Part shown: one piece after another, positions 1 to 24,740 of the stretch
Numbering within the stretch: position 1 is the stretch's first letter
Layout: each line of letters opens with the position of its first letter
From: a virus
Reading direction: 5' to 3' (one strand)
DNA: 57,783 nt
IMG/VR virus record: IMGVR_UViG_3300045988_161144
Coordinates: 1-57,783 of that record
Translations under genes and position numbers: made by a program
The notes under the pieces: model-generated
Told to the model about the DNA's origin: nothing
What the model saw: only the letters and a program-made list of their open reading frames with translations
The model's database searches: none

Positions 1-79
1 GCAACCTCTGCATCATTCAATAATACAGTTAAAGCAGTATTCTTAAGATTAGATGATAAGGTGATTGGTAAATCATCAC
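1..79. repeat. Terminal direct repeat, identical to 57705..57783 (79/79 nt); likely circular-contig overlap or terminal redundancy
   Basis: Direct comparison of the first and last 79 nt of the window; the minus-strand reading frame is continuous across the junction. Confidence 0.9.
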
Positions 80-1478
80 CAACCCCCCCAATCAAAGTAG
101 ATGCACTAATACTGATTTGTGGTGATTCAGCTGGAACAACTGTCCATTTTGCAGTAACACTCGCACCATTATACAAATTATCCCCATCAAACTTAAACAC
201 TCTTGTAGCAACCCCACTTGTTGGATTAGCATAATTAAATGTTACTCTACCTTCATCATTAGTAGTTTTACTCCAATCCCCGCAATAAACTGTTTTATTT
301 GCTAATGGGTTGTTTTGATTGTCTTTCAAATATAATATGCATAATACATTCTCACCAACAGTAACACTATTTTTATCAACAGTACAAGTTAATACAGAGG
401 TTTTTTTAGTCCACTCCACCACAACACTATCATGTGCTGGTAAATAATTAGAATCCCCATCGAAATCATAAGTCAATTCCACCTTTTGAGGGACTGCTGG
501 AGTATAAGTATATGTGACTTTCCCATCATTATTTGTAGACTTAATATTATTATACCTGTCCCTAATTGCTTTATTAGGAACTGGTTTATTATTCTTATCT
601 AACAATGTAACTGTCATGATCAACATTTTCCCAGCTTCCAACACTGTCTGACTTGCTGAAACAATAAAAGATACTGGTATCTTAGACACTTGTACAGACA
701 CAGATTGACTACATTCATTATATGCTGGTGAACCACCATATATAAAATCAAGAGTTAAATTTAATGATGCTTTGACAGTATCTGAAAATTCGCCTTTATC
801 ATTTGTAATGTATTGTTTTTCATTAAACAATATTTCAGCCCCTTTAACTAATTCTCCATCACTACTTTTTAAAACACCATTGAAGGAAATAATATCATCA
901 ATATAATATGAGTCCTTGTCCAGAGTAATGGTTAAATTTGTGTCTAATTTAGTGATGTCTGGAAGTTTTGGTTTATCAACCATTACAGGATTATTAATTT
1001 CTAACAAATATCCATCATATAAAAAACTAATAAAATTATAAACCTTAAATGATTCTGGTAAGATACAAAAAGCCAATACAATATTAGTAACCTTATTGAC
1101 AATAAAAACCCCAGCCATATCCTGTGCCACATTACCGATTTCAACAATTGGGGTGGCAGATGATACTTGGACAGTTAATCCACCATTATCATAACTTTGC
1201 ATATATAATTCAATTGGTGGATAATTAACACTTTCACGAACCTCTAACCCATCATCATCAGTATAGACCTTCTTTAAAGGAGTGACTTCATTATAATTCA
1301 AGGTGTAATCATTATTGATGTTCTTTTTCCAATCACCACTACATCGACTTACGGGGATAAAACACCATTTATTAAAATTATTTCCTTTAACCATTTGTTC
1401 AAAACTAAAACACCCTCTTTTATTAATTATCTTCCAAAGATTTCCAATAAGTTTAAATTCTAAATAATCATCAATCAT
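1..1478 (-). CDS. Tail fibre / adhesin-like protein, N-terminal 492 aa (Dit-like N-domain plus repeated Ig-like beta-sandwich modules); continues across the window junction into 57704..57035
   Basis: ATG at 1478 immediately downstream of the stop of ORF 1493..4558; open frame to position 1 in the same phase as ORF 57035..57783; N-terminal 170 aa paralogous to ORF 13139..13663; repeated TNDxG..VTF motifs. Confidence 0.6.
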   Translation of the reverse strand, partial: MIDDYLEFKLIGNLWKIINKRGCFSFEQMVKGNNFNKWCFIPVSRCSGDWKKNINNDYTLNYNEVTPLKKVYTDDDGLEVRESVNYPPIELYMQSYDNGGLTVQVSSATPIVEIGNVAQDMAGVFIVNKVTNIVLAFCILPESFKVYNFISFLYDGYLLEINNPVMVDKPKLPDITKLDTNLTITLDKDSYYIDDIISFNGVLKSSDGELVKGAEILFNEKQYITNDKGEFSDTVKASLNLTLDFIYGGSPAYNECSQSVSVQVSKIPVSFIVSASQTVLEAGKMLIMTVTLLDKNNKPVPNKAIRDRYNNIKSTNNDGKVTYTYTPAVPQKVELTYDFDGDSNYLPAHDSVVVEWTKKTSVLTCTVDKNSVTVGENVLCILYLKDNQNNPLANKTVYCGDWSKTTNDEGRVTFNYANPTSGVATRVFKFDGDNLYNGASVTAKWTVVPAESPQISISASTLIGGVGDDLPITLSSNLKNTALTVLLNDAEV

Positions 1479-1492: not shown

Positions 1493-4400
1493 TTAATATT
1501 GTATTTTCATTTCAACATAATCTATCCTGAACTCACTAACATTATATGATGCTGTAGACTTAAGATGACTTTCCTGCGGAATAATAAGTAATGCAAGGTT
1601 GTCTGATTCGATTGCAGATGCTTGTTCAGCAGTGAATGGGTGTGTAATAGTGAATGGTAAGTATGTGTTCTTGTTTTCTACTCCGAAGTTTCCTTGAGTG
1701 GTTTTTTCATCATAAACTATATTATTAATCACATCTTTTAATTGTAATTTTGGGAAATACATGTGTCCTCCAGTTATACCTCCGAACTCTCCGCAGAATA
1801 CTGTTGCTGTTACTGTACAAGCCTTGTTTGGTCGTGGGAATTTAAACACATTAAAATATATTTGAGCCGGAGTAGTTCTCAAATATGCGGAAACACTACT
1901 GTTATGTGTGCAGGTAATTGCAGTTGATGCACTACTATTATTTTCTCTTTTCTGCACTCTTGCAACATTCAATGAATCACTATTATATCCTTTAATTTTA
2001 TTATTAGTTCCAGCAGCACTTAATGATAAAGGCACACGAGTATGGGTAGTTATTGGTGCTGTTTTACCTGTTATCTTCACAGTATTTGAATATGTTGCTC
2101 TATTACTAATGAACTCATTAGTGGATTCTGCGAATTTACATATGAATGTCCCATTCTCTTTAACAGTTAATTTAACCTCACCATTCTCATCAGTTTTATA
2201 GGTAGTGTTGTTAATTAATAATTCAAAATTTGGTAGAATTTCCCCATGGTTATTTAATGCTGTTACTGTTAAAATATCTCCTTGTAGAACATACCCAGTA
2301 TTTTGATACGCGCCTCCAGAGAATTGTATATTCCCAATGGTTTTCACCACATTAACAGTATATGATTTTTCGCATGGAGCATAAGTCATATCCCCATTAA
2401 AAACTCCTAAAATATTATATTCTCCTTGATTTAATCTTAACGGTATTTTAGCAATTCCTGAATTATCGGTTGTTTTGTAATAATTTTTCCCATTAACGGT
2501 AAATGCAACACTCCTACCACCCAATAAATTATTTGATGAGTCTTTTAATGTCACACTTAAATAATCTCCAACTTCAACGGTAGTGGATATTACATCTGAT
2601 AAAACGGTTAATGTTCTTGGATTAATTGTATAAATAAAAGTACCAAAAGTATTCGAGTATGGTCCTGATGTATTGTTTCCTTTACCAATAACTCCTGCAG
2701 GTGTTATTTTTAATCTACCATTACTTGATCCATCGCCTAAGTTTAAATCATTAGTGTAGATGGGTACTGGAGGTCTTAATCTTTCAGGGATTTCATGTTT
2801 ACCATCATTTGGAAATAATCTGAAATAATATTCACCATCATTACCATAATCTGAGCTGTTCCCACTGAATTTATAAAATTGGACAATTACAATGTTTCCC
2901 AATTCATAGATGACTATATAATTCTGTGTTTTATCTGATTCATCACGATAAATATATGTTGTGGGGATTACTGAGGATAAAAAGTTTATTGGTGATTTAC
3001 CATCTAATGTTTTAGCATCTACTCCTGATTCATTAACAGATTCAACAATTTCTTCAGTGGATGGTGTTTTACCATCTTCTCCTTTGATTAATGACCAGGT
3101 GTATCTTGACGGGTCTTGACTTGTTTCCTGCACATAATCATAATATGTACCCATATATTTTCGATTAGTGCTGTTTTCTGTACTGAAATCTGTTTCACCT
3201 TTATCATCATTCGCATATGCAAAATGCACATAACCATCATTTGGTGCTTGAGGAAGACTTGCCCATAATGCAGGGGCAGAATAATTACTCCACACGCCAT
3301 TTATTTTTAATTGTTTACAAACCCATTCATACCCAAAATTATTACGAACTCCTTGAGGATTTTCAAACCATTGACCATCATCATCAGCATCATCATCACT
3401 ATCGTCCGATCTAACAATTATTGTTTTTGGTGGGGTTTCAGGTTGTGAATTGGAATTTGTTCTACAGAAGATATAATGTACATCATCACCATCTAATGCA
3501 GACAAACATAATATATTAACTGCTTGAGTTGAATTATCAGTATACTTAATTAGATTCCTACTCCACAAATATGGTTTCTCATCAGTTGTTGATGGTTTTA
3601 CTGTACTCCACCCATCTGTTGGTGAATTAACATATTCATTAGATATGGTATATTCTTCATATATGTTCAAAATGCCCTTACTTTCAACTTTAAAATAGAA
3701 ATATTTATTTACATCAGTAGAATCTAATAGATTATTATCATAATAATATCCAATAAAACTCCCACCTTCTTCATTTAAACCAGTTCCTATATCATCATAT
3801 GCATATTTGATGTGCATATAGTACATTACATCATTTAATGTGTATGATAATCCATCAACAGGTTTTATCTTCCAAGAATATTTACTAATATCTGTAGAAT
3901 CCACTACATTACCATCTACATAATACCCAATATATTTTTGAGGTTGTAAGCTTGTTTGACTAATATCTAAAGGATTATTTAATGTACAGTATCTTATATG
4001 CATATATAATGGTGAACCATCTTTAGTACCACATAATAATCCCTGACTTGTTTCAACACCACTGTCACCAGTAATACATACTGGTTCAGAGTATTTAACA
4101 CCATGATTACTTGTTATTTTAGTTCTACTCCAAATATATCTTCCAATAAGATGAGTTGGTGCATCTGTACTCCACCCTTCATCTGATTGGAGAGGTGGAG
4201 TTGTTCGTGATTTTGTTTGAATAAACTCAATATCCATATCTAAAATATTTTCCCCACCACCATTATTTGTACAGAATGGTTCAGTTTTAAGTTTAGCCAC
4301 ACCAGTATCAATAACATTCATAATCCACAAATATTTGTCCTTTATATCTGGAGGTAATGTAGTGCTCCACCCACTATCATCTTTAGAAGGTACATCAATA

Positions 4401-4558
4401 TTATTATCTGTTAAAAGATAATATGATTCATAATTCATAGAATTGTAATTAGATTCTAAATTGTCTACATCAATCCTTAATCTCCTAATATCATGATCCA
4501 TGATTTTAATCCTCCCATTTATATGTTTCTTTTTTATCATATACGGCAGTTTTTCCAA
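1493..4558 (-). CDS. Large adhesin-like tail fibre protein (1021 aa) with repeated Big/CarboxypepD_reg-like beta-sandwich modules
   Basis: Six-frame ORF; repeated T(D/N)xxG..(K/V).. modules (TTDNSGIAKIPL, KTDENGEVKLTV); in tail gene block; overlaps upstream gene start by 53 nt. Confidence 0.55.
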   Translation of the reverse strand: MEKLPYMIKKKHINGRIKIMDHDIRRLRIDVDNLESNYNSMNYESYYLLTDNNIDVPSKDDSGWSTTLPPDIKDKYLWIMNVIDTGVAKLKTEPFCTNNGGGENILDMDIEFIQTKSRTTPPLQSDEGWSTDAPTHLIGRYIWSRTKITSNHGVKYSEPVCITGDSGVETSQGLLCGTKDGSPLYMHIRYCTLNNPLDISQTSLQPQKYIGYYVDGNVVDSTDISKYSWKIKPVDGLSYTLNDVMYYMHIKYAYDDIGTGLNEEGGSFIGYYYDNNLLDSTDVNKYFYFKVESKGILNIYEEYTISNEYVNSPTDGWSTVKPSTTDEKPYLWSRNLIKYTDNSTQAVNILCLSALDGDDVHYIFCRTNSNSQPETPPKTIIVRSDDSDDDADDDGQWFENPQGVRNNFGYEWVCKQLKINGVWSNYSAPALWASLPQAPNDGYVHFAYANDDKGETDFSTENSTNRKYMGTYYDYVQETSQDPSRYTWSLIKGEDGKTPSTEEIVESVNESGVDAKTLDGKSPINFLSSVIPTTYIYRDESDKTQNYIVIYELGNIVIVQFYKFSGNSSDYGNDGEYYFRLFPNDGKHEIPERLRPPVPIYTNDLNLGDGSSNGRLKITPAGVIGKGNNTSGPYSNTFGTFIYTINPRTLTVLSDVISTTVEVGDYLSVTLKDSSNNLLGGRSVAFTVNGKNYYKTTDNSGIAKIPLRLNQGEYNILGVFNGDMTYAPCEKSYTVNVVKTIGNIQFSGGAYQNTGYVLQGDILTVTALNNHGEILPNFELLINNTTYKTDENGEVKLTVKENGTFICKFAESTNEFISNRATYSNTVKITGKTAPITTHTRVPLSLSAAGTNNKIKGYNSDSLNVARVQKRENNSSASTAITCTHNSSVSAYLRTTPAQIYFNVFKFPRPNKACTVTATVFCGEFGGITGGHMYFPKLQLKDVINNIVYDEKTTQGNFGVENKNTYLPFTITHPFTAEQASAIESDNLALLIIPQESHLKSTASYNVSEFRIDYVEMKIQY

Positions 4559-7500
4559 ATACTGCTTGTTTAGATTGTGTTATTACTCTTTGTTTTTCAT
4601 ATTCTTCTCTTAATTCAATTACTGGTTCTGGTTTATTCAACCCTATTTTTGTTTGTAATTTTGGAGAATTTCGAACATTATATTCGTGAGTGATACTTTT
4701 AACTTGTTTATAATCATTATATGCAGAATTTTCAAATATACAATCTACATAATCACCAACCCTTAAATCTTTTGGACAACCTTTAACAGTTACAGTTAAA
4801 CTATCACTACGGTCATTTTTAAATTTAGGGTTGCTCCTTGCTTCATAATATGCTTCAAGACCACTAATATCATCACTAATACTCACGACATTGGTGATTT
4901 CACCATATTGTGTAACTTTCATTGGATTACGACTTTCAAGATAATTATATATACTATCCTCAGCATTCCTTTCTTTCCTCTTATAAACCACCATTGACCT
5001 ACTAATGAAATCAGATACTGGAGTATACTCCCAGTTACTAATTGATATAATGTTTCCATCATCACCTTCTTTTATTGTAAATCTTGGTTCAGGAGCTTTC
5101 TGTTTATGTGAAACATATAATCTATCATTTCTCCTCATTTGTTGTGGGTATAATCTTAATTCTAAATCTCCAGAAGACAATATTGTTTCCATTAAACTAT
5201 TCAATGATTTACCAGTTGCTTCAAGATTAATTGGATTTAAAATATTCCCATTACGAAAACCAATCCTCCTTAAAATCATTCTACAACTACTATTATCTTC
5301 GGTGGAGTCGTTACTCTCCCATAATTTTTCAGAACCAACAACATATTCAAAAGTAATATTTCTCAAATACACTTTAGGATAATATGTTTCATTAAGTTTG
5401 TTGATTATACTTACACTACCAGTAGTAAATACATTATTTAAAATAACTGGTGTGAATCCTCTAAAAGTCTTTAAAGAATCAGATTCGGCAGATGTAAAAT
5501 CAATATAAATTGGGATTCTCTCAGCATTTTTGTTCTGAGATGTACTGAACTCTATTTTAACCCATGCTTGGAACGGTTTATCTTTATCAAATCCATTAGT
5601 TATTGATTTACCACCATTTCCAGCTTTATCTATAGTATTACCTTTATGTTCTCGAACAATCCTTCCACCCCATACTCCAGAAGTATCATTTAACATATTC
5701 CCATATCTTTCACCCCATTTATATTGCCTATATGGGAAATTTTGCCATTGTCCATTACTATCTAAATATTGCACAGTACGATGAGCTCTTGATGAATTAG
5801 TAGCATATTCCATGATACGGCAGGAAATATTTTTTTCAAATAATCGAGTATAAATCAAATCACTAAATGCCCAACAATCCCCATATCCTTTAGATTGCAA
5901 ACACCCTAAACTACTGCATGTATCTCCACGAAGTAAATATTTGTACTGAAATGCCTCATTGGTTATTGTTGCAAAAATATCGCCAACATTTACTGTGGTG
6001 TTTTCAGTATCGTCTGATGATGTTGAAGTATTTCCAGCATTACTTGCTTCATTTGCACTTGCACTTACGAGTTTTACTCGCCTACATTTAGCTCCAGCTG
6101 CTTTATCTCCTCCACAGTATCCACAGTAATCAGCATCACAACCACCTTTTTTCATGCTACAGGTTATTTCTCCTTCATAAACTCCTTTGGGGTTGTCTGT
6201 TAATGTTCCGCTTTTACCACAATTGGGGCAGTAATTTCTCCATGTTTTAGTGTATCTTTTATATTGTGTTCCATAGAAACAAGCACATAATGGCATATGA
6301 TTAACTGTAATTGTTTCACCAGTAGTTACACTACTATTATTCTCAGATGCGACATCATATTTAGTCATAGGTTCGCCCATACCATATTCAATGAAAAATA
6401 TGGGAAAATCATTTAATAATTGTGGAGATGAATTATACCAGTCGGAATCATAAACAACAAATGATTGTTTAGTATTAATTGAAGAATTGTTTCTAATATA
6501 GACTCCAGTTCCTTTTAATGAAACAGTCATTTCTGTTGCTTTACATTTATTGAAATTATTTTTATTGGTTAAATCCACAGATATTTCATTAAATTTATCT
6601 GCTTCAAAAACATCTGGTAATGTATTAAGTAATGGTTGTTCCATTGCACGAAGAACATAATCTAATGCATAATTATAGTCAGGATAATGGACAACATCTC
6701 CATCTTTATATGCAGTATTATAATCTGAAGCATTTCCACCAACATTTATTTCTTGTGTACAATATCTTACATCACCATCAATTAATCTTCCCGCACATTT
6801 GATTGTTAATTCTGTTTCATCACTATTCTTTGAAACATTACTGATATATCCTCCAAAGATTTGTTCCATTTCACCATCAGAATTAATTACACTATAATTA
6901 ATTTCATCACGATAATCAAAAACAAAATTTGTTAATGTTGTTTCATCTTCCCACTCATTATCATATAATATAGTGAATGAGAACTCATCAGCACCAACCT
7001 TTTCAGAATCAGAATGATTTGCTGAAAGTAGAGTTAATTTGGCATCTGCACTTAAATCAGAATCTGCTTTATATGTGGTGATTTTTTTAACAAATGCACT
7101 TAAAACTTTTAGATGACTATCTATCTGTAATTTAAATTTATGTGTTCCTTGTTTAAGTGAATATTTATAAGTTTTACGGGTTAGCCATTTTGGATTACTC
7201 CTTATAGACCAATTCATTAAATTATCATCAATTGTCCACACAATATTATGATAATCCTCATCTGTACTTGTAAATAGAAATCCAATATCATAGTCCCCAG
7301 TTTCTGGTGCAGTAAATAGATATTCTACAAAGAAATCATTACTATTGTTACTTTCAATTGTTTCCCATGAATCCCATTTACCATATTTAGCATTAGACAT
7401 GATAACTGGTGTGCCACTTGACCTTGAAATAAAATCTTGTTCGTAGTTTACTTCATTATGTCTAATTTCCAATAAAAACTTTTCAGTATAAACATGATCC

Positions 7501-7568
7501 ACAAACCTTTGTGAATCAGTCCATGGTTTTGTATTATGTTTAGCTATACCATGCATTTTAAAAATCAC
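4506..7568 (-). CDS. Tail-associated protein (1020 aa) with Cys-rich zinc-ribbon segment and transglutaminase-like cysteine peptidase core (G-D-C-W-A-F-S ... A-H-R ... D)
   Basis: Motif GYGDCWAFSDLIYTRLFEKNISCRIMEY..AHRTVQYLD matches transglutaminase-core pattern G.C..FA...R.GIP.R...G...H.W; CxxC-rich block CPNCGK..CGYCGG. Confidence 0.6.
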   Translation of the reverse strand: MIFKMHGIAKHNTKPWTDSQRFVDHVYTEKFLLEIRHNEVNYEQDFISRSSGTPVIMSNAKYGKWDSWETIESNNSNDFFVEYLFTAPETGDYDIGFLFTSTDEDYHNIVWTIDDNLMNWSIRSNPKWLTRKTYKYSLKQGTHKFKLQIDSHLKVLSAFVKKITTYKADSDLSADAKLTLLSANHSDSEKVGADEFSFTILYDNEWEDETTLTNFVFDYRDEINYSVINSDGEMEQIFGGYISNVSKNSDETELTIKCAGRLIDGDVRYCTQEINVGGNASDYNTAYKDGDVVHYPDYNYALDYVLRAMEQPLLNTLPDVFEADKFNEISVDLTNKNNFNKCKATEMTVSLKGTGVYIRNNSSINTKQSFVVYDSDWYNSSPQLLNDFPIFFIEYGMGEPMTKYDVASENNSSVTTGETITVNHMPLCACFYGTQYKRYTKTWRNYCPNCGKSGTLTDNPKGVYEGEITCSMKKGGCDADYCGYCGGDKAAGAKCRRVKLVSASANEASNAGNTSTSSDDTENTTVNVGDIFATITNEAFQYKYLLRGDTCSSLGCLQSKGYGDCWAFSDLIYTRLFEKNISCRIMEYATNSSRAHRTVQYLDSNGQWQNFPYRQYKWGERYGNMLNDTSGVWGGRIVREHKGNTIDKAGNGGKSITNGFDKDKPFQAWVKIEFSTSQNKNAERIPIYIDFTSAESDSLKTFRGFTPVILNNVFTTGSVSIINKLNETYYPKVYLRNITFEYVVGSEKLWESNDSTEDNSSCRMILRRIGFRNGNILNPINLEATGKSLNSLMETILSSGDLELRLYPQQMRRNDRLYVSHKQKAPEPRFTIKEGDDGNIISISNWEYTPVSDFISRSMVVYKRKERNAEDSIYNYLESRNPMKVTQYGEITNVVSISDDISGLEAYYEARSNPKFKNDRSDSLTVTVKGCPKDLRVGDYVDCIFENSAYNDYKQVKSITHEYNVRNSPKLQTKIGLNKPEPVIELREEYEKQRVITQSKQAVFGKTAVYDKKETYKWED

Positions 7569-7828
7569 CTAATAATTTTTATTGTTTCCTCTTTAGAATA
7601 TGCATATTCGATAGCTACACTATCTGGGTCATCATATTCTCTACTTGATTTTAAGAATGGATAGAAAACTGTTCTATCATTCTTATCAATTTTATTTAAA
7701 TGTATTTCTTTCCTATTTGGTCTTATAATTGATAATCCACAAGTACTATAATCATCATGGATTTCTACATTAATATGTTTGTCAAATAGGACTATGCTGT
7801 CCTTTGGTGCTGTTGGTTCTACCATCAT
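7565..7828 (-). CDS. Hypothetical small tail-module protein (87 aa)
   Basis: ORF translationally coupled (overlapping start/stop) with the flanking giant tail genes. Confidence 0.35.
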   Translation of the reverse strand: MMVEPTAPKDSIVLFDKHINVEIHDDYSTCGLSIIRPNRKEIHLNKIDKNDRTVFYPFLKSSREYDDPDSVAIEYAYSKEETIKIIR

Positions 7829-10800
7829 TTACTCCTCCACGATTTCTGTTGGGATAACATAACTTACACCTAATTCAAATTTGTTTAAAACAAGACTTGC
7901 TGGGTTTTGAGAAGTATTCTTATCATGTTCAAACAATACTCCAAACACAAAACTATTATTTATCACACCAGATAACATATTTAATCCAGTCCATTCCACA
8001 CCAACAATATTATATCCTTCTTTAGATTGTAATGGTATACTATATCCTTTTTTACCATTATTTATTCCACAATTTATTAATGTTGCACTTGCAGAGCCAA
8101 TTGTAGGATATAATTTATCTGATTGTGGATTGAATTGTTTTTCCTGCCACCTTGCACTTATCTTAACAATTTTGTAATCGTCTTTACTAAATGAGAAATT
8201 AAATGATGACATATTTAATGTATCTGGAGTATTGTAATTGCCTGAAATACCATCAATAGGAGTTACTCCAGATATGCTTTTGTCCCCACAACTGATTGGG
8301 AATTTTGGTGTATCTGATAAACTCCATGGTTTGAATGGTTTTGTATTATTTTCATGTGTATTCCTGATTTTTATTGGGGATTTCCATACTGTGATTGGGT
8401 CAAGAACTTCCAAGACATATTCTTTAGTACAGCCAATGTAATTTTTATCTCCTTCAAAGGTTATTTTAACATTATATTGTCCTGCGAGTAATCTTATATT
8501 CATATAACATAATCCTTGGTCATTAGTGACTCTCTCATAGGTTACTCCATTAACTTTATATGATAATTTTTTACCAACTAATGGGATATTTTCAGAATCA
8601 ACTAATTTGAATATGTCTTGAGTGTATCTGTACACATAATTTTTCTTTTTAACATCAATAATTTTTGTTGTATCATTATTTACTGTTAAATTAATTATTG
8701 GTGATTGGGATTTTGAGAAAAATGCTGTACCATTATATTTTAATTGGAGTTCATGTTCTCCAAGTGTTTTTGCCTGATAATATAATGTTTTTGGATTTTT
8801 ACCTATTGTTTTGGATAAAACTGGTGTGCCATTATCATATAATGTTACAGGTAAATCATTATGTGATGCTGAAGCTACCAAGTCTACAGTTCTATCAACA
8901 TGACAAGTGTATTTTGATGTTTCTGTAGGGTATGTATCAAATAATAATGAAACATTTGTATTTACTGATGGAACAGTAATTTTCTGTAAATAATTATATG
9001 CTTGATATACATCATCACCATCATATTTTACACTTATGTCATAATCTCCAGATTTTGGAAACTTGATAATTCTTGATTCACCAGAACCCATCTCAAACGA
9101 ACCAACATTTGGTATGTTTAACATAAGTTTGCCAGTAAAGTCATAATTCTTATTTACTTTTAATTCACAAGACCCATCATCAGATTCAACAATAAGTACA
9201 TCATCAGACAAAGCAATATTTTCACCAATACTCAACAAATCCTCGCCAAAACCACTTAAATCAGGGTCAATTACACATAAAGTATACTCCTTACTTTCAG
9301 AACTTGAATATGTTAAATTCCCCATAGATTTAGCTTTAATATTATATAATCCTTGTTTTTTGAAATTTAATGGATAACGGGTAGAATCTGATTCTGTAAC
9401 TAACTCTCCAATATATTTATTATTAGCATATATTTCCACCCTCATATCATTAATTATCGTTGGAAGTGACTCATTACTTGTCTGATAAACCTTAACTAAC
9501 ATATAATCAGTAGAACTATTGATTGGTACAATAAGGTTAGGTATGGTTAATTCTGTAATGGATTCAGTTACAATAGAATTAAAATAACAATTATTACTTT
9601 TAGATTCGCTGAAATGGAGTTCTGGGATAAATCTTGCAGAAGCAACATAATTCTGATTTCCCTCAACAACAAAATTATAAATCCATTCATATTCATCATC
9701 AGAAGATAATGATGGTGTTGGGTCTACATATACGGATTCATCATTAACAATAAATTCAACACGACCAATAGGTTTTCCATCAACAAAACCTTGACTAATA
9801 CCATTAATGTCCTTAACATTAGCTACAAGCATTACTTCATAACCACTATTAAATTGTGATTCAACAATTCCTTCACTGGTGCGAGTTTCTAATTCAATAG
9901 TAGTAATTACATCATAAAGGTAAACTGCCCTTTTTCCACGATTGCCATCATATACGATTATGTTATCTGGTGTAAGTAATCCTTCACATTCAACAGTATT
10001 ATATTTATCATTAATCATCAAATCCACATTTTCATGTTGGCATTCAATAAATGGGTGTCCTCTCCACATAGTCCATAATGTTTGACCAAATTTGACAGAA
10101 ATTTTATCATCATTATAGGATTCAATTTCAAAATCATTAAAATCATCTAAACGAACCATATTAGTGTAAACATAATTATTTGTTGATGCATCATAAACAT
10201 AAAATGAAACAGTACCAAACAACCTATCAAAACCAACTTTTATCAAGTTATTTGAAAGGTATAATGTTGAATTGTAATTTTCAACAAACATTACACTTGA
10301 ACCACCGCTTGTTTGAAGGTCTACACCACCCTTATATTGTTGGAAACCATCAACAAGATAATATATGTTAGAAGTGTCCTCATCAATAGTATAATAATAT
10401 AATATCCCTTCCTCTGATTTACGATAGAATAATAAATTTTTACTCGGTAATGGGAATGGAGAAACAACTAAATTATTATAAAAATTACTATATGGATTCG
10501 CTAAAATATTTTCATATGATTCAACATCTAAATGAGCGGTGAAATTAGGTTCAATAAGTCCAACATCATTATTATCAAAACAAACATCAATAATATATTC
10601 ACCAGAAGCCAATTCGATATCTTTTTCAACAATTTCTAAACCATTAGCACCTGATTCAGTAATAGTTACATAATCCCTGTCAAAATGGAAATTAGTTGAG
10701 GATTTAAATACTCCATCAAATGGTTCTTCCCAGTCAAGTTTAATTCTCTTATTAAAGACATTGAGTATACGACCATTCTTATAAACAACACAATTTGCAT

Positions 10801-13129
10801 TACATTGATTAACAACTTTTCCTCTTTCATCAAAACAAGTAAAATCATATAATGTATATTCTAAAACATTCTTTCCAGAATTATTATCAATAATAGTGTA
10901 AACTATGCTATTCTGTTTATAATCATTAGATTCATCAGTAGGATCTGATGGCAAAATACAATCCCAGTAATATGTAACATCACAAATATCTTTCAAAGCC
11001 CATTTATTCCTAATATGTAATGCTTCACCAGTACTACAGTTAATCTCATTAATCCTATTATTAACCAAATCATGACTAATTTGACCAGAACCAAATAATT
11101 CAAAATAATTAATTAATGAATCTCCCTTATTTATAGTGTTAATTAAATCATATGGGAGATTAGTTTCACATAACCTTGCACCAAGGATTATTGATGCCTT
11201 ACCAAAATATTTTCTTGTTAAATATTCTACATCAATTTCACCTTTGTAAACCCATGAATTAACTCTCTCAATATTACTTATTGCTTGAATATCAACCCAC
11301 CCACGATGATTCAAAACATCATCATCACTACATGAAGGACATAATTCAATAGAAACAGGTCTATCCATCTTTGTGAAACCTTCTAATGTTTTCCAATGAT
11401 TTGGTGGTAAATATATACTTAAAGACAATTCATCTTCCCATATTCCAGTTTTGGAAACATATTTACGATTTTGATAAGTTCCTTTTTTAACTGGGTTTTT
11501 AAATGAGAATTTTGGATTGTGATGACTATATGGAACTTTTAATGGACCAATATGTTTAACTCTTTTTTCAAAGAAAACTTTAAGGGCGGACATTGAACTA
11601 TTCCATTTACCAAAACCTTCTTTTGTTTTGCATTTAAAAAAGAATCCTCCACCATCACATTCTACTGCAATATTTGGGGTATTCACAGTTAATATTTTAT
11701 GTGCAAATTCCAAATCCACTCCCTTTTCAGGTCCAACTCTAAAGTTAAATACATATTTTTCTGAATTAGTGTAATGGTCAGAACTGTTATTGTTTGAAAA
11801 GAATGTATGGAATTGATAATCTCCCTCATTCCATGAGATATGCATAAATTCTCCTAATAATACAAAATTTAATTTGCCAGTGAATTCATTAGGATTATTA
11901 ATTTTAATATCTAATTGTAGAGTTTTTTTATCAGCAGATAAGTGTTGATTAACTAATTTCATGCCTAATAATCCACCAACATTCTCTTGGAACTGATACT
12001 CTGGGAATTTCATGTATTTGTCTGTTTCAGGGTCATAACATTTAAGGAGAACAGGATAAACCCAATCATTACTTTCCAATTCATAAGTGTCCAAATCATA
12101 TATCCAATATTCAATATGGAATGTTTCTGCAGGAGCAATTTCACCACTCCAATTTCTACTGAATACTGGACACCTTATTTGTGCATTGTTTCTATATTCA
12201 TTATAATAAGCATCTACTACTTTAACATAATATACTGCAACTTGTGAATCATGGGTTGCTTTAATTAATCCAACTTCCTCATTATCAAAGGGTTCGCCAA
12301 CCACCATTAACTTATAATGGAAATAATCTGTAGACTTGTCGATTTTTGGAGTAACATACCAATGATATGTATTTTGGTTAATTTTCTCTACTCTTCCAGC
12401 ACTAACCTCATAATCGTCCAATTTATAATTATCTGGGAAATATAATACAACAAGTTGTTCTGTGGGACTTAAACCATTAGTAGTACGGATATAACAATAA
12501 CTGCTAAAAACTTCACCCATATGCACCTCATGTGGTTCATCAGGTGTACTCCATGTTTCTACTCTTCCCTTTTTGTTAGGTTCAGTCATACTAACATTAT
12601 ATGTTGCAACATCATAATCTATTTCAATATAAACATAATCTAAATATATTGCACCAACATTGGGGCTTACATTTGGAGTATATGCTAATGTAACACCAAA
12701 ATCATTCTTATTAACTTCTGCAACAGTAAGTTTTGTTGATAAATCCATGAAATAACGGCTTCTCTTCACAAAATTTTTATAAACATCAGAATCACTTGTT
12801 TCAAAAGATAAATTAGTTCCAACCAATCTAATGTCTAATCCACGAAAAATAGGATATGTATTATCATTAGATTCATCAGTATAAGATACTTTCCTATCTT
12901 CATAACCTACTTCAATACTATTAATAACTGCATCACGGGGCAAATCAAAGTTAAAATTAGTGAAAGTTATGGGTGCAGGTATTAATTTCACACCCTTACT
13001 TGAAGAAATATTGTTACATTGTCCCACCTGTCCTTCAGGATATAATAAATTATTTAAAAGATTCCAATCCTTACAACGAGGATTAGATAAGTCCTGAACA
13101 ACCTTATTTGCATATTTTCTAATAATCAT
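7829..13129 (-). CDS. Giant tail/baseplate protein (1766 aa), Tal-like position, adhesin-like with Ig-like repeats
   Basis: Long uninterrupted ORF directly downstream of Dit-like gene; contains TNDQG-type beta-sandwich motifs. Confidence 0.55.
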   Translation of the reverse strand: MIIRKYANKVVQDLSNPRCKDWNLLNNLLYPEGQVGQCNNISSSKGVKLIPAPITFTNFNFDLPRDAVINSIEVGYEDRKVSYTDESNDNTYPIFRGLDIRLVGTNLSFETSDSDVYKNFVKRSRYFMDLSTKLTVAEVNKNDFGVTLAYTPNVSPNVGAIYLDYVYIEIDYDVATYNVSMTEPNKKGRVETWSTPDEPHEVHMGEVFSSYCYIRTTNGLSPTEQLVVLYFPDNYKLDDYEVSAGRVEKINQNTYHWYVTPKIDKSTDYFHYKLMVVGEPFDNEEVGLIKATHDSQVAVYYVKVVDAYYNEYRNNAQIRCPVFSRNWSGEIAPAETFHIEYWIYDLDTYELESNDWVYPVLLKCYDPETDKYMKFPEYQFQENVGGLLGMKLVNQHLSADKKTLQLDIKINNPNEFTGKLNFVLLGEFMHISWNEGDYQFHTFFSNNNSSDHYTNSEKYVFNFRVGPEKGVDLEFAHKILTVNTPNIAVECDGGGFFFKCKTKEGFGKWNSSMSALKVFFEKRVKHIGPLKVPYSHHNPKFSFKNPVKKGTYQNRKYVSKTGIWEDELSLSIYLPPNHWKTLEGFTKMDRPVSIELCPSCSDDDVLNHRGWVDIQAISNIERVNSWVYKGEIDVEYLTRKYFGKASIILGARLCETNLPYDLINTINKGDSLINYFELFGSGQISHDLVNNRINEINCSTGEALHIRNKWALKDICDVTYYWDCILPSDPTDESNDYKQNSIVYTIIDNNSGKNVLEYTLYDFTCFDERGKVVNQCNANCVVYKNGRILNVFNKRIKLDWEEPFDGVFKSSTNFHFDRDYVTITESGANGLEIVEKDIELASGEYIIDVCFDNNDVGLIEPNFTAHLDVESYENILANPYSNFYNNLVVSPFPLPSKNLLFYRKSEEGILYYYTIDEDTSNIYYLVDGFQQYKGGVDLQTSGGSSVMFVENYNSTLYLSNNLIKVGFDRLFGTVSFYVYDASTNNYVYTNMVRLDDFNDFEIESYNDDKISVKFGQTLWTMWRGHPFIECQHENVDLMINDKYNTVECEGLLTPDNIIVYDGNRGKRAVYLYDVITTIELETRTSEGIVESQFNSGYEVMLVANVKDINGISQGFVDGKPIGRVEFIVNDESVYVDPTPSLSSDDEYEWIYNFVVEGNQNYVASARFIPELHFSESKSNNCYFNSIVTESITELTIPNLIVPINSSTDYMLVKVYQTSNESLPTIINDMRVEIYANNKYIGELVTESDSTRYPLNFKKQGLYNIKAKSMGNLTYSSSESKEYTLCVIDPDLSGFGEDLLSIGENIALSDDVLIVESDDGSCELKVNKNYDFTGKLMLNIPNVGSFEMGSGESRIIKFPKSGDYDISVKYDGDDVYQAYNYLQKITVPSVNTNVSLLFDTYPTETSKYTCHVDRTVDLVASASHNDLPVTLYDNGTPVLSKTIGKNPKTLYYQAKTLGEHELQLKYNGTAFFSKSQSPIINLTVNNDTTKIIDVKKKNYVYRYTQDIFKLVDSENIPLVGKKLSYKVNGVTYERVTNDQGLCYMNIRLLAGQYNVKITFEGDKNYIGCTKEYVLEVLDPITVWKSPIKIRNTHENNTKPFKPWSLSDTPKFPISCGDKSISGVTPIDGISGNYNTPDTLNMSSFNFSFSKDDYKIVKISARWQEKQFNPQSDKLYPTIGSASATLINCGINNGKKGYSIPLQSKEGYNIVGVEWTGLNMLSGVINNSFVFGVLFEHDKNTSQNPASLVLNKFELGVSYVIPTEIVEE

Positions 13130-13138
13130 AATATTCTC

Positions 13139-13663
13139 CTATTGTGTAGGGATAGAATATGTTGGAAGAATCTCAACAACAAATCCTTCACTTGGTAAAG
13201 TTAAATAGTTCATAATTTTAGCAGGTTTTGGAAGAATACAATAACTTATAACAGCTCCAGTGTATTCATTACACAAAAAAACACCTTTTAAGTTTTGAAC
13301 TTCTGAACCAATACTTAAAGTAGGTGTTTTAGAACCAATACTAACAACCAATCCACCATAACCTACTTCTTCAGCAACCAACTCTACCACAGGACAATCT
13401 AAGTCTTTAACAGTAATATCACCTGAATCTGAATAACTAATATTTTTAATAGGAACAGCCTTTGACTTATCCAATGTATAATCTGCTTTAATATTTGACT
13501 TCCAATCATCACTACAATTAGACACAGGTACAAATTCAAAACGATTCTTAGAATTATTCAATACCATGTCTGAGATGCTGAATGTTCCTTCTTTATTCAT
13601 TATTTTATGAAAATTATCAATTAATTTAAATTCTAAAACAACAGTTGTGGATTTATTACTCAT
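13139..13663 (-). CDS. Distal-tail-protein-like (174 aa), paralogous to N-terminus of junction-spanning tail fibre
   Basis: Located immediately after the tape measure gene; clear similarity (LEFKLI.N..KI.NK.G.FS...MV..N..N...F.PVS.CS.DWK.NI..DYTL) to ORF starting at 1478. Confidence 0.45.
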   Translation of the reverse strand: MSNKSTTVVLEFKLIDNFHKIMNKEGTFSISDMVLNNSKNRFEFVPVSNCSDDWKSNIKADYTLDKSKAVPIKNISYSDSGDITVKDLDCPVVELVAEEVGYGGLVVSIGSKTPTLSIGSEVQNLKGVFLCNEYTGAVISYCILPKPAKIMNYLTLPSEGFVVEILPTYSIPTQ

Positions 13664-13717: not shown

Positions 13718-16700
13718 TTACCTGCCAGTGTTCTTATTCACACCAGTCAGGTCAATAATTTTATCAACGACAATGTCACCAATATCCTGACCAATAGATT
13801 CATCAGAAACATTTGCTCCCCTCATATCAATATTCAAAGTTAAATGTAATGACTTATCTACTTTGGATTCTTCTTCAGGAGGTTTCAAACTGCTTCTTGT
13901 TCCAATACCTGAAACCTTTGGGGAAGTAAAACCATACCCTTGCTGAATAGCAGTAGCATCAATATCACCAATACCATCAACATGAGCCCAAACATGAGGA
14001 ACACCATTCCAAGAACCATGCCTCATACTACTACTGAAACCAAATGCACGAGCCAAAGCCATAATAATCAAAGCACCATCATAACAGTTAAACATACCAC
14101 TATTATATGCTGCCACTGGATCACCACCAGTTTTAGAATTCATGTATCCTTGATAACTTGTACGGCTAATAGCATCATAAATATATCCCTTACATATTTC
14201 TGGTATACCACGAACTGGGAAATCATCATTTTCAAATTTACCCACACTCAAATAAGGGTCATATATTGCACCAAAGTTTGTTCTCCAATGTAACAATGCT
14301 TGCCTAATATCATCTGTCCAATTAAAGTTCCAACCACCAGCATAACATTCTTTACCAGAATTCAAACAATTAATATATTGGGCTAAAAAATCAATATCAT
14401 CATTCTTCATTCTTGGCTTAAAACTATTGCTAATACCTGTGGTTTTACTATATCCACCAGCACCAAAACTACCTTTTGGGATTCTAATTTTAGGTGAACT
14501 TGAATTCATAGTTTTAATCACACCAGATTTAACTGGGTTGCTGATAGGTGTCCTTGTACTTGTAGTTGAGAAATCTCCACCAGCACTACCCATTAACAAT
14601 GCAGGATTTTGGACTTTCCTCCAGAAACTACCCATATTATGTTCTAACTGGTTTATTTTAGCACCAGTTTGACTACGAATATATTCTGCACTACTGATTA
14701 ATGCATTTTGCATACCATGCCAACTATTAGTTATAGCATGGATATGTCTGGTTGTCTGATTCTGCATATTATTCATTTGAACACGAGTAGTCGTACCCAT
14801 TTTAGTATATGCAGATGAAGCAGAAGTATTTATACCATTAAATGTTGTTTGGAGTTTCAAACCCATATTAGAGAATGTACTACCCATAACAGTATCTAAA
14901 CCCACAAATGCATTCTGTGTAGTGAGTGCAATATTCTGACTCAAACCAGTAGCCATACTTGCATCAGCTTGGAACTGTTGTAATGCAGGCTGATTCAACA
15001 TTGGGTCAAGACCCATAACTCCGAGAGTACTGTTAGCATTACTGGTTAAACTTGAATATGTGTTGTTTGCAAAATTAGCCATTGTAGGAGCATAACCACT
15101 AACAACAGCCTCAGCCAAACCTTTAGCACTATTATATGCTAAAGTAGTGTTACTTAATGCCTGACCAATACCAGTAACTTCTGCAATAGTACTTCTCCAC
15201 ATAATTCCTGGAGAATGTATATCCATACCGTCCTTATAACCATTACTTGCAGATTGTCCTAATTGGTATCCTTTGTTATAGAAGTATTGTTTTTTATCCT
15301 CCATAACTTGCAATGCACCACGACACTCCTTATCCGTAGCTTCCTTGATTTTGAATCCTCCAACAAAACCTGTATTAGCATTATTACCCATGGACTTACC
15401 ATGGCTACGAGCATTAACTCCGCCATAATTAAATCCATTAGCTAATTGAGTACTTATAACAGTAGACAATCCCATCATACCACTATTAATACCCTGTTTT
15501 ATTGCCTGACCAATACTTTTCCCTTTAGTACTTGCTGTACTAATAGCATTATCAAGTGCAGAACTCATGCCCTTAACAGCATTACTTATAGCAGTAACCA
15601 TGCTTGTAGCACCAGAAACATCAGCAGTCTTGCCAGATGTGGCAGTATTGATATTATTATTAAATTTGATGATATCATTAACCATGTCTTCTAATTGTTT
15701 CAACTTACCACCTAAACTGGAGGAATATCCTCCAGCAGATCCACCACCAACAAGGTTGCCTAAAATATTACCTCCAGGAATCATTGAACCAACAACATTA
15801 GCAACACCACCAATAAAATCACCAGTATTATTACTAACTGCTGATTGGACTGTCTGAACAGCCTGATTAATGGATTGGATACTTGTAGCTATTTCTTGAA
15901 TCTGTGTTGCTTTAGACTTATTAACTTGGGGAATTTCCATTTTATTTAATTCTGTTGCGAATTCCTTCATTGATGTAACTACACCATTTTCACCAACAAG
16001 TCCTTTAATATATTCACTTATGCCCTGACCACCAGTAGTTATTTTAGATATAAAGTCAGTAGTTAATACTGCAAGTAATGGAATCATTGCCATACCAATA
16101 ATGGTTAATGCTTCACCAACCACTTTTATTGCATTTGCACCTTGTTGTATACTGGTTAAATCTGGGAATAATGTACCAACAATAGCTAACATTCCAAGAG
16201 GTGCAACCATACCAATAATTGCTTCAGAAAGTATGACTAACCCAGCACCGACACCAGCAACAGCAATAACAAAAGTTGCTCCACCAGTAGCGAAAGCAGA
16301 TGCCGCTATTAAAACTCCTGCAATAAATAATGGGATAAATGGTGCAAGACTATTTAATGCATTAGAGCATGCTTGTACTGCTTGAATTCCCCTATCTATA
16401 TTAGTTGAACCTATAGTATCATAAACCCAACCTAATCCAGCAAATGTCAATAATGGTAATGCTAAACCAATAATTGCTTCAGAAACAAGAAGTAAGCCAA
16501 TTGCAATACCTGCTGCCGCATCTTTTAAAAAGGATAATTTACCTGTTTTTAATAATTTACCTGATAAGATAACAACTCCACCAAAAACAAGCACTAATGG
16601 AATAATTGAAAGGAGGGTGTCACTAATTAATTTAAGTACCTCTGCACCTTGTTTAACTTGACCTTCAATACCAGAATATACTGTACCTAACCCAGCAATG

Positions 16701-20470: not shown

Positions 20471-20492
20471 CTTTTTAATCTCCTTTAAATAT

Positions 20493-20936: not shown

Positions 20937-21189
20937 TTAAACCCATCTCCATCATCAAATTTTCAACTTCTGGGTCATTCTGGTCACTTGGGTCTGATTT
21001 TTTACCGTCCATTCTTCGTTCTTCTTCATCAATCAAATCCAATTCTGTTAAATAAAGGAAACTTATTGTCCATGTGTCTGTTTCCCAAAATTCTTTTAAG
21101 GACATACCTAAACCTTTCATTCTATGAACAAGTAATTTATATATCCCCAACATTATCTGTTCAAGTTGCCAAGAATAATCGCTCATCAT
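20926..21189 (-). CDS. Acidic small protein (87 aa), possible tail assembly chaperone partner
   Basis: Position between major tail gene and tape measure; acidic C-terminus. Confidence 0.3.
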   Translation of the reverse strand: MMSDYSWQLEQIMLGIYKLLVHRMKGLGMSLKEFWETDTWTISFLYLTELDLIDEEERRMDGKKSDPSDQNDPEVENLMMEMGLIDD

Positions 21190-21220
21190 TGGAGTGATTA
21201 TCTTGGGGTTTGTTGAATCA

Positions 21221-21823: not shown

Positions 21824-21898
21824 AAAAAAGTATAAAAATTTATTAAAAAAATAAGAAAAGAAGAATAAAGAAAGTATAAAAAGTTATTTCCCTAAAAT

Positions 21899-24734: not shown

Positions 24735-24740
24735 AAATCA

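What the first reader, a model, noticed from the sequence alone, without database searches (positions are those of the whole stretch)
1..79. Window ends are identical for 79 nt and one ORF spans the junction: likely complete circular or terminally redundant viral genome
Positions 1-79 equal 57705-57783 exactly. The minus-strand frame that begins at ATG 1478 is still open at position 1. It is in the same phase as the frame open at 57783, which ends at 57035. Joined, they give one 715-aa tail-fibre protein. An attL/attR explanation is unlikely because the repeat lies inside a continuous coding frame and int is 19 kb away. The window therefore probably represents the whole element of about 57.7 kb with assembly-style overlap.
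Basis: seen in the sequence. Interest (0 to 1): 0.6.

Follow-up and report, generated by a model that had tools for sequence, protein, structure and literature searches.

The report
Complete circular methanogen virus genome
The identical 79 bases at both ends are an ordinary assembly overlap showing that the window is the whole 57.7-kb genome of a temperate virus of the gut methanogen Methanobrevibacter smithii; the gene it cuts is a tail-fibre gene that also carries a flippable receptor-binding tip.

Summary
Observation confirmed. Bases 1-79 equal 57705-57783 exactly, with no other copy. Removing one copy gives a 57,704-bp circle on which one minus-strand ORF (ATG 1478, stop 57035-57037) encodes 715 aa.

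Interpretation supported. An independent contig (ERZ27229642 k119_36055, 57,695 nt) is the same genome cut near window 6290. It aligns without gaps through 1|57704 (18,560 nt, 8 mismatches) and encodes the intact 715-aa gene. All of about 20 further contigs examined read through the junction.

The repeat is not attL/attR. Proviruses with the identical integrase lie in archaeal host contigs of up to 1.56 Mb. Their ends map to a 9-nt core, TTTTAGTGA, at window 38551-38559, which is intact here.

Homologues of the junction protein are annotated Methanobrevibacter smithii. The gene set is complete.

So the overlap is an assembler artefact of a circular map. The virion DNA form (probably headful, permuted) cannot be read from sequence.

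Beside the junction, 56497-57606 is an invertible segment. Its 41-nt inverted repeats swap two lectin-like C-terminal tips of the fibre. Three close relatives carry it flipped with exactly reciprocal junctions. No dedicated invertase was found.

The parts
1..79 (.). Left copy of the 79-nt terminal overlap; it lies inside the fibre gene (codons about 467-492).
   Evidence: Exact identity with 57705-57783 and no other copy.
57705..57783 (.). Right copy of the 79-nt overlap. It is redundant: removing it gives the 57,704-bp unit.
   Evidence: The independent record aligns without gaps across 1|57704 once one copy is removed.
1..1478 (-). 5' part of the fibre gene (ATG at 1478): the conserved N-terminus, plus a strain-variable Ig-like middle encoded at about 123-650.
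   Evidence: Pfam Big_3_5 and Big_1 hits. The 123-650 stretch does not align in L001 and many other relatives. Five of the 8 SNPs against k119_36055 lie at 85-123.
57035..57704 (-). 3' part of the fibre gene: the end of the constant shaft, the crossover site, and expressed C-terminal cassette A (57035-57565; stop at 57035-57037).
   Evidence: The A domain model matches CBM66 and galectin folds.
57566..57606 (.). Right arm of the inverted repeat, inside the fibre gene (encodes NVYYSNILNLEDC). The 14-nt identical core is at 57588-57601.
56497..56537 (.). Left arm of the inverted repeat, with the core GTTTATTATTCAAA at 56502-56515. An in-frame TAG at 56499-56501 precedes it.
56502..57047 (+). Silent, promoterless alternative C-terminal cassette B (VYYSNILQVEDC...KNLKIKPYSE*). 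It converges on cassette A and overlaps it at the stop codons.
   Evidence: In-silico inversion gives a 708-aa protein. B-type tips are the expressed end in 84 of 120 homologue clusters. The model is lectin-like.
38551..38559 (.). attP core TTTTAGTGA, the site where the genome is cut on integration. It is intact in the window.
   Evidence: attP, attL and attR compared at base level. Provirus ends map to 38547-38565.
38658..39722 (+). Tyrosine integrase, the only recombinase detected.
   Evidence: Pfam Phage_integrase and Phage_integr_3; phrog_1, E=2.2e-15. The identical protein sits next to host DNA in 9 of the 10 contigs shown.
28710..30023 (-). Large terminase subunit (PBSX / Terminase_3 type).
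13718..28713 (-). Head and tail module: portal, prohead protease, scaffold, HK97-type capsid protein, connector proteins, major tail protein, chaperone, and a 2250-aa tape measure protein.
   Evidence: Synteny and 26-45% protein identity with the annotated genes of vir249.
1493..13663 (-). Distal tail / baseplate-like proteins (174, 1766, 87, about 1016 and about 1002 aa) directly upstream of the fibre gene.
   Evidence: BppU-like_C and Big_3_5 hints. The C-terminal 604 aa of the 1021-aa ORF is 90% identical to vir249's 'virion structural protein'.
55432..56358 (-). Lysin: a pseudomurein-binding repeat plus a C-terminal peptidase domain.
   Evidence: PMBR hit. PDB 22oc at E=1.4e-34 and a weak hit to 8z4f pseudomurein endoisopeptidase. 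60% identity to vir249 PeiW over 133 aa.
34000..36250 (.). AT-rich (24% G+C), ORF-poor, repeat-rich region between the two diverging gene blocks. It is probably a regulatory or origin region, and related contigs break here.

Best explanation
The window is one complete copy of a 57,704-bp temperate tailed virus (Caudoviricetes) of Methanobrevibacter smithii. It was assembled from its free form, meaning excised, replicating or packaged DNA.

The sequence closes on itself, so a de Bruijn-graph assembler walked round the cycle and emitted a linear contig whose last 79 bases repeat its first 79. This is a k-mer-sized overlap. The cut fell by accident of the graph inside the tail-fibre gene, at the edge of a strain-variable patch.

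Shown: the exact overlap; the continuous 715-aa gene; closure confirmed by an independent contig cut elsewhere; attP intact at 38551-38559; provirus ends at that site in host contigs; a complete virus gene set.

Inferred: that 79 was the assembler's k; that the source DNA was circular or a circularly permuted, terminally redundant headful-packaged molecule rather than DNA with fixed ends.
For: The 79-nt identity is exact and unique, and the ORF is continuous across the join.

Record ena:ERZ27229642:k119_36055 (57,695 nt) is 100.000% identical to window 28658-49722. Its first 18,560 nt align without gaps to window 6287->1|57704->45432 with 8 mismatches, and it encodes the intact 715-aa gene. 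Its own ends map to window 6287 and about 6297, so its break lies in the window's interior.

About 20 further contigs from different samples span the junction.

The identical integrase lies next to archaeal host genes (PriS/PriL, MetRS, DUF530) in nine contigs of 53-177 kb. The other provirus end (histone, 276-aa and 137-aa genes) abuts further host genes in contigs of up to 1.56 Mb. attP, attL and attR share the core TTTTAGTGA at 38551-38559.

Homologues of the junction protein are named Methanobrevibacter smithii by NCBI.

The gene set is complete and syntenic with the circular record vir249. Other free contigs of this virus are 56.3-57.8 kb long.

A circular assembly of the M. smithii virus MSTV1 was likewise attributed to terminal redundancy and circular permutation from headful packaging (PMC11375127).
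Against: No reads are available, so neither circular topology nor the nature of the virion ends is observed directly.

Five SNPs against the sister record cluster at 85-123, right beside the overlap. The source sample may therefore have held more than one strain, and the closing join could be a consensus of two near-identical variants.

The far end of k119_36055 was placed at window about 6297 by arithmetic only; the stretch 6297-28657 of that record was not retrieved (searches did not return it).

That 79 is an assembler k-mer size is my own knowledge (it is in MEGAHIT's default k list), not a tool result.
Confidence: 0.93

Rival explanations
1. The 79 nt are a genuine short direct terminal repeat at fixed physical ends of the virion DNA, as in T7-like phages.
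For: An exact direct terminal repeat is present, and tailed-virus DNA is linear in the particle (PMC11375127).
Against: The repeat lies in the middle of a 715-aa coding frame. An independent assembly of the same genome breaks 6.3 kb away and reads through this point. About 20 relatives also read through it. TerL is a PBSX / Terminase_3 type; its best annotated relative is vir249, and no T7-like terminase appeared among the 75 of 875 matching phage records that were listed. Five SNPs cluster directly beside the overlap, which fits an assembly-graph break at a strain-variable patch.
Confidence: 0.03
2. The repeat is attL/attR, and the window is an integrated prophage cut out at its attachment sites.
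For: The element is temperate: it encodes an integrase and is often found integrated.
Against: The real att core is the 9-nt TTTTAGTGA at 38551-38559. Host DNA abuts the genome there in attL and attR, and the window carries the uninterrupted attP. The 79-mer is coding sequence shared with non-integrated relatives. No host genes lie in the window.
Confidence: 0.01
3. The closure is a chimeric or mis-assembled cycle. Two co-occurring strains, or a tandem repeat, share a 79-mer, and the assembler joined ends that are not adjacent in any single molecule.
For: SNPs cluster at 85-123 beside the overlap. The fibre gene is mosaic among strains. Some assemblies break inside this gene.
Against: The same order and the same join are found in k119_36055 with no gaps and in many other contigs. 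The unit length agrees with other free contigs. The 79-mer occurs only once per unit. At worst the contig is a two-strain consensus with the correct structure.
Confidence: 0.03

Closest known systems
MSTV1, Methanobrevibacter smithii tailed virus 1 ('Usuviridae'; PMC11375127)
   Same: It is a temperate tailed virus of the same host that integrates as a provirus. Reads from its particles assembled into a circular contig, which the authors attribute to terminal redundancy and circular permutation from headful packaging.
   Different: MSTV1 is 38.8 kb against 57.7 kb here. Megablast of window 20001-45000 against the phage collection found nothing, although I did not check whether MSTV1 is in that collection. 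No invertible fibre cassette is mentioned in that paper.
Caudoviricetes sp. vir249 (BK063678.1 / NC_133254.1): 51,140 bp, deposited as circular, human gut, host Methanobacteriales
   Same: It is the best annotated relative. Order is syntenic from TerL through portal, protease, scaffold, MCP, major tail protein, chaperone and TMP. It also has PeiW, integrase, dCTP deaminase, kinase, thymidylate synthase and PCNA homologues.
   Different: Identity is only 25-45% for most proteins. It has no homologue of the 715-aa fibre. One tail protein shares a C-terminal half that is 90% identical, which points to module exchange.
Assembly-derived direct terminal repeats, used as a completeness signal for uncultivated virus genomes (CheckV / IMG/VR practice; own knowledge)
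   Same: An exact k-mer-sized repeat sits at both contig ends, and the sequence is continuous once one copy is removed.
   Different: None in kind. Here closure is additionally verified by an independent contig with a different break point.
Invertible tail-fibre segments of phages Mu (G segment / Gin) and P1 (C segment / Cin) (own knowledge)
   Same: Inverted repeats sit at the boundary between the constant and variable parts of a fibre gene. A second promoterless C-terminal cassette lies in the opposite orientation, and inversion swaps the receptor-binding end.
   Different: No serine invertase gene lies next to the segment or anywhere in the genome. The host is an archaeon. Only the fibre tip is exchanged, with no accompanying assembly or chaperone gene.
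Haloarchaeal virus phiCh1 phase variation (ORF34 / ORF35-int1 / ORF36; PMC4284463)
   Same: It is an archaeal tailed virus in which inversion exchanges the 3' ends of convergent fibre genes and changes adhesion specificity.
   Different: In phiCh1 the recombinase gene lies inside the invertible region, between two full fibre genes. Here the 1.1-kb segment holds only the two tips, and the sole recombinase is the integrase 17 kb away.

Membership tests
Complete virus genome with assembler-made terminal overlap (circular map) | Exact direct repeat of k-mer size at both contig ends, not low-complexity and not repeated elsewhere | tested here: met
   79 nt exact, 33% G+C, only two copies.
Complete virus genome with assembler-made terminal overlap (circular map) | Sequence and reading frames are continuous when one copy is removed | tested here: met
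   A single 715-aa ORF spans the join. Alignment to k119_36055 across the join has no gaps.
Complete virus genome with assembler-made terminal overlap (circular map) | Independent assemblies linearise the same sequence at other points | tested here: met
   k119_36055 starts at window 6287 (shown) and ends at about 6297 (by arithmetic). Contig 170671 breaks at 33843 and 36871.
Complete virus genome with assembler-made terminal overlap (circular map) | Full virus gene complement with no host flanks | tested here: met
   Packaging, head, tail, lysis, integration, replication and nucleotide-metabolism genes are all present.
Complete virus genome with assembler-made terminal overlap (circular map) | Reads span the junction with even coverage | not testable with these tools
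   No reads are available.
Headful (pac) packaging with circular permutation and terminal redundancy | Permuted ends and no fixed termini in virion DNA | not testable with these tools
   The only evidence is indirect. TerL is of the PBSX / Terminase_3 type, at most 29% identical to any characterised bacterial phage TerL. The analogy with MSTV1 is from PMC11375127.
Short fixed direct terminal repeat genomes (T7-like) | The repeat marks the physical ends, so assemblies of the same virus end there | tested here: not met
   Independent contigs read through the point, and the repeat lies inside a gene.
Prophage bounded by attL/attR | Direct repeats at the element ends with host DNA outside | tested here: not met
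   The att core is at 38551-38559, and the host junctions were found there in other contigs.
Tailed virus (Caudoviricetes) of Methanobacteriales | TerL, portal and HK97-fold capsid protein | tested here: met
   TerL matches Pfam. Portal and MCP are 40% and 45% identical to the annotated vir249 genes.
Tailed virus (Caudoviricetes) of Methanobacteriales | Host link to a pseudomurein-walled methanogen | tested here: met
   Proviruses lie in archaeal contigs. Homologues are named M. smithii. The lysin has a PMBR repeat and resembles PeiW.
Invertible tail-fibre host-range switch (Mu G / P1 C / phiCh1 type) | Inverted repeats at the constant/variable boundary, flanking a segment that holds an alternative promoterless 3' cassette | tested here: met
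   The 41-nt arms are at 56497-56537 and 57566-57606, with a 14-nt identical core. Cassette B is preceded by an in-frame TAG.
Invertible tail-fibre host-range switch (Mu G / P1 C / phiCh1 type) | Both orientations occur, with reciprocal junctions | tested here: met
   The window, L142, L001 and L003 have one orientation; L111, L154 and L005 have the other. Flanks are exchanged exactly at the core. These are different samples, not one population.
Invertible tail-fibre host-range switch (Mu G / P1 C / phiCh1 type) | Dedicated invertase gene in or beside the segment | tested here: not met
   No resolvase/invertase or second tyrosine recombinase was found by Pfam or PHROGs in the ORFs scanned. The integrase, 17 kb away, is the only recombinase detected.
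Invertible tail-fibre host-range switch (Mu G / P1 C / phiCh1 type) | Both orientations coexist within one virus population | not testable with these tools
   There is only a hint: contig L157 ends exactly at the last base shared by the A and B continuations.

The most novel reading that the evidence does not exclude
The contig break is not random. It sits in the most variable gene of a gut-methanogen virus, and that gene carries an active DNA-inversion switch. The switch exchanges two lectin-like receptor-binding tips (the two major alleles in the M. smithii virus population) with no invertase of its own. It would therefore be driven by the integrase acting at a second kind of site, or by a host recombinase. 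I found no report of a fibre phase-variation system in a virus of a methanogen or of any human-associated archaeon; the main survey of methanogen viruses (Medvedeva et al. 2023) could not be read.
Probability: 0.5. Interest if true: 0.55.

Novelty: new member of a known kind. Interest (0 to 1): 0.25.

Why it matters
The overlap itself matters only as quality control. It certifies that the window is a complete genome with a unit length of 57,704 bp, and it warns that the fibre gene appears split in any linear annotation of this contig.

The context has more value. The work yields a base-level map of a complete, widespread temperate virus of the main human gut methanogen. The map includes attP/attL/attR, the integration locus and the free form. 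The work also uncovers a probable host-range switch in the virus's receptor-binding fibre. If that switch is active, it bears on how archaeal gut viruses coexist with hosts whose surface is highly variable.

Tried and rejected
1. Megablast of window 20001-45000 against GenBank phages found nothing. The first attempt failed because the query was one base over the length limit.

2. A TerL-based scan of representative genomes found only distant bacterial prophages and no provirus. Host evidence therefore came from exact-protein look-ups instead.

3. An exact pattern spanning the junction was not found in viral contigs, because close relatives carry SNPs there. BLAST of the fetched loci answered the question instead.

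4. My recollection that the MSTV1 paper described fibre inversion was wrong. It mentions no inversion of any kind.

5. The Medvedeva et al. 2023 compendium could not be read, so prior description of this lineage or of the switch cannot be excluded.

6. Search for a second recombinase: Pfam and PHROGs scans of most ORFs of 128 aa or more, plus a few smaller ones, found none.

7. attP and the inversion core share a GTTT-N(5-7)-AAAC dyad, but this is not significant: 14 matches in the window against 7.2 expected, and 2 of 100 shuffles reach 14. It was rejected as evidence that the integrase does the inverting.

8. No tRNA genes and no Rfam families were found in the window.

9. Inferring the packaging type from TerL failed. 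Relatives among characterised phages are at most 29% identical, and the best PDB hit, a 'large subunit terminase' (5oe8, E=9e-9), is uninformative.

10. Two look-ups meant to retrieve the far end of k119_36055 did not return that record.

11. My first in-silico inversion used the outer edge of the repeat and carried the TAG into the gene. It was corrected by placing the crossover in the identical core.

Full report
**1. The observation**

Positions 1-79 and 57705-57783 are identical, and 79 is the only prefix length (1-1999) that equals the suffix. The 79-mer has ordinary composition (33% G+C). It has no other copy on either strand, even with 20 mismatches allowed. The chance of such a match is about 1e-43.

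Deleting one copy gives a unit of 57,704 bp. On its minus strand one open frame runs from 1511 through 1|57704 to 57038. Its first ATG is at 1478 and its stop at 57035-57037, giving 715 aa. Every coordinate in the finding is correct.

**2. Is the join real?**

The strongest test is an independent assembly cut at a different place. The exact integrase and lysin of the window are also encoded on ena:ERZ27229642:k119_36055, a 57,695-nt contig.

- 21,065 nt of that contig are 100.000% identical to window 28658-49722.
- Its first 18,560 nt align in one gapless block to window 6287 -> 1 | 57704 -> 45432, with 8 mismatches.
- It encodes the 715-aa gene intact, with two amino-acid differences.
- Its start maps to window 6287 (shown). 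Its end maps to about 6297 by arithmetic only, because that end was not retrieved.

So that contig bridges the window's break directly, and by this arithmetic its own break lies inside the window.

The junction is also read through by these contigs:

- IMG/VR contigs L001, L002, L003 and L005;
- metagenome contig L111;
- ten contigs from ten further samples, L143-L152;
- L132, L134, L153 and L154.

A 715-aa homologue with 97% identity and full coverage exists in the protein collection.

**3. What the element is**

The window has 30.7% G+C, no tRNA genes and no Rfam match.

The minus-strand block, running from about 33.9 kb down through position 1 to 54.7 kb, encodes:

- an amidoligase-like protein, a putative small terminase and TerL (Terminase_3);
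- portal, prohead protease, scaffold and an HK97-type capsid protein;
- major tail protein, chaperone and a 2250-aa tape measure protein;
- four distal tail proteins, the 715-aa fibre, and a lysin.

The lysin has a pseudomurein-binding repeat. Its catalytic half matches PDB 22oc (E=1.4e-34) and it resembles vir249 PeiW.

The plus-strand block (36.3-54.6 kb) encodes:

- an archaeal histone (PF00808, E=6.6e-15) and the tyrosine integrase;
- RecT and a PCNA-like clamp;
- a kinase, a thymidylate-synthase homologue and dCTP deaminase;
- an ERCC4-HhH nuclease.

The two blocks diverge from a 2.3-kb AT-rich, repeat-rich, ORF-poor region. Order and content parallel the curated circular record vir249 (human gut, host Methanobacteriales), which has the closest annotated TerL at 45% identity. 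Nothing in the window looks like host DNA.

**4. Host, integration site, and why the repeat is not att**

The identical integrase occurs in 62 blocks of the contig collection. In nine of the ten places shown, archaeal host genes lie directly upstream of it: PriS/PriL primase, MetRS, DUF530 and DUF1699.

The identical histone gene marks the other provirus end. The order there is histone, 276-aa, 48-aa and 137-aa genes, then host genes: glycosyltransferase 4, RibD_C, DUF2115, PHP and UvrD. These host contigs are up to 1.56 Mb long.

Homology to the window stops at 38547 on one side and at 38552-38565 on the other. At base level the three sites share the core TTTTAGTGA:

- attP: GAGTG-TTTTAGTGA-AACACTAC
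- attL: AAGTC-TTTTAGTGA-AACACTAC
- attR: GAGTG-TTTTAGTGA-TACTATTGG

The core is at window 38551-38559, about 100 nt upstream of int. The window therefore carries an intact attP and represents the free form. The integrated form is cut about 19 kb from the window ends. Homologues of the fibre protein are labelled Methanobrevibacter smithii by NCBI, and one sister contig is labelled human gut metagenome.

**5. How the overlap arose**

The best explanation is an assembler walking round a closed path and reporting the closing k-mer twice. Sister contigs carry MEGAHIT-style names (k119_, k127_, k141_). From my own knowledge, 79 is one of that program's default k values.

The position of the cut is probably not wholly random. 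Five of the eight differences from the sister record lie at 85-123, immediately inside the overlap. The adjacent stretch 123-650 is replaced by unalignable sequence in many relatives. A strain-variable patch is where an assembly graph branches.

What the physical DNA looked like cannot be decided without reads. It could have been an excised circle, a replicating concatemer, or headful-packaged permuted linear molecules. TerL is a PBSX / Terminase_3 type but at most 29% identical to any characterised phage terminase. The authors of MSTV1 interpreted their circular assembly as headful packaging (PMC11375127), and I take that as the most likely case here.

A real 79-bp terminal repeat, an att repeat and a chimeric closure are each given 3% or less, for the reasons listed under rivals.

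**6. The gene that spans the junction**

The label 'tail fibre' rests on several points:

- It is the last structural gene, after the baseplate-like proteins and before the lysis genes.
- It has Ig-like Big_3_5 and Big_1 domains.
- Its end is exchangeable.

AlphaFold models of the two alternative C-terminal domains both find CBM66, galectins and other concanavalin-like lectin folds as best PDB matches (E about 2-3e-7, TM 0.5-0.6). The B model has pLDDT 74.9 and the A model 64.2. The function is inferred, not shown.

**7. An invertible fibre tip next to the junction (found in passing)**

Comparison with relatives showed that 56502-57034 lies in the opposite orientation in several of them. The window has a 41-nt imperfect inverted repeat (56497-56537 and 57566-57606), with an identical 14-nt core, GTTTATTATTCAAA.

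- The right arm lies in the fibre gene and encodes NVYYSNILNLEDC.
- The left arm is preceded by an in-frame TAG.
- The left arm is followed, on the plus strand, by a promoterless cassette VYYSNILQVEDC...KNLKIKPYSE*.
- That cassette parallels the expressed ...KNLKIKHYSE*.
- Inversion within the core would give a 708-aa fibre with tip B.

Seven two-cassette genomes were found in all. They fall into two states:

- A expressed: the window, L142, L001 and L003.
- Flipped, B expressed: L111, L154 and L005.

L111 and L154 are 94-99% identical to the window over the aligned flanking sequence. In both, the 1100-nt segment is inverted with exactly reciprocal junctions. The flanks GGAACGAAT and TTTCGTAG swap partners at the core.

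Most relatives carry only one cassette, either A or B, fused directly. Among 120 homologue clusters, 33 end in A, 84 in B and 3 in neither. The silent cassette is therefore a functional allele that is in wide use. One contig (L157) ends exactly at the last base common to both continuations. This hints at both joins in one sample.

No invertase gene was found. A dyad shared by attP and the inversion core is no more than chance. Candidates for the enzyme are the integrase, a host recombinase, or rare short-homology recombination; the virus encodes RecT.

Known analogues are Mu G and P1 C (own knowledge) and the haloarchaeal virus phiCh1, where the recombinase lies inside the segment (PMC4284463). 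I found no report for methanogen viruses in the papers I could read.

**8. Verdict**

The feature itself is an ordinary assembly signature of a complete genome and deserves a low score.

The element is a complete genome of a widespread M. smithii temperate virus. It is not represented at the DNA level in the annotated phage collection, at least for the 25-kb stretch tested, although near-identical unannotated contigs exist. The adjacent inversion switch is the part worth following up.

Noticed in passing
window 56497-57606: A 1.1-kb invertible segment is bounded by 41-nt inverted repeats with a 14-nt identical core. It holds the expressed fibre tip A (minus strand) and a silent promoterless tip B (plus strand). 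Three close relatives (L111, L154, L005) carry it flipped with reciprocal junctions. No invertase gene was found.
   Followed up: yes
window 38551-38559; L112 about 9890; L128 and L131 about 12270: The attP core TTTTAGTGA lies about 100 nt upstream of int. attL and attR were identified in M. smithii-type host contigs. Integration lies between a DUF1699/172-aa gene region and a 151-aa/glycosyltransferase-4 region of the host.
   Followed up: yes
window 36284-36484 (+): The virus encodes a 66-aa archaeal histone (PF00808, E=6.6e-15). The identical protein is on record in 474 blocks of the contig collection; all ten places shown lie in this provirus.
   Followed up: partly
window about 34000-36250: An AT-rich (24% G+C), ORF-poor region with several tandem-repeat arrays (34551-34609, 34705-34784, 35714-35861) lies between the diverging gene blocks. 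It is a possible origin or regulatory region. Related contigs end on either side of it (170671 at window 33843 and 36871) or inside it (157560 at about 35750).
   Followed up: partly
window 30754-31714: A second non-coding, repeat-dense stretch (arrays at 31301-31353, 31373-31514, 31520-31657) lies just upstream of the putative small terminase gene. It might contain the packaging start site.
   Followed up: no
window 85-650 (fibre codons about 276-465): This is a strain-variable middle part of the fibre gene. Five SNPs against the sister record lie at 85-123, and 123-650 is unalignable in many relatives that are otherwise 96-99% identical over the aligned flanking sequence. It coincides with the Ig-like domain region and with the contig break.
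   Followed up: partly
window 1493-4558 (-) against vir249 31689-33491: The C-terminal 604 aa of the 1021-aa tail protein is 90% identical to vir249's 'virion structural protein', while the rest of the two genomes is 25-45% identical. This points to recent exchange of a tail module between distinct virus lineages.
   Followed up: no
window 46434-47605 and 52901-53431: A nucleotide-metabolism set is present: a guanylate-kinase-like P-loop kinase, a thymidylate-synthase homologue and dCTP deaminase. All three are also in vir249. This could mean dNTP pool tuning or a modified base.
   Followed up: no
window 55432-56358 (-): The lysin combines a pseudomurein-binding repeat with a C-terminal domain that strongly resembles the solved structure 22oc, 'P210 WT' (E=1.4e-34). 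I could not trace the nature of that entry.
   Followed up: partly
L157 (logan:DRR741534, contig end) and L156: Two assemblies of close relatives stop inside the fibre gene at the crossover site. One stops exactly at the last base shared by the A and B continuations, as expected if both joins coexist in that sample.
   Followed up: partly
window 32899-33867 (-): An Amidoligase_2-family gene (E=4.9e-10) sits at the start of the late gene block, upstream of the terminase genes. Its role in a virus is unclear.
   Followed up: no
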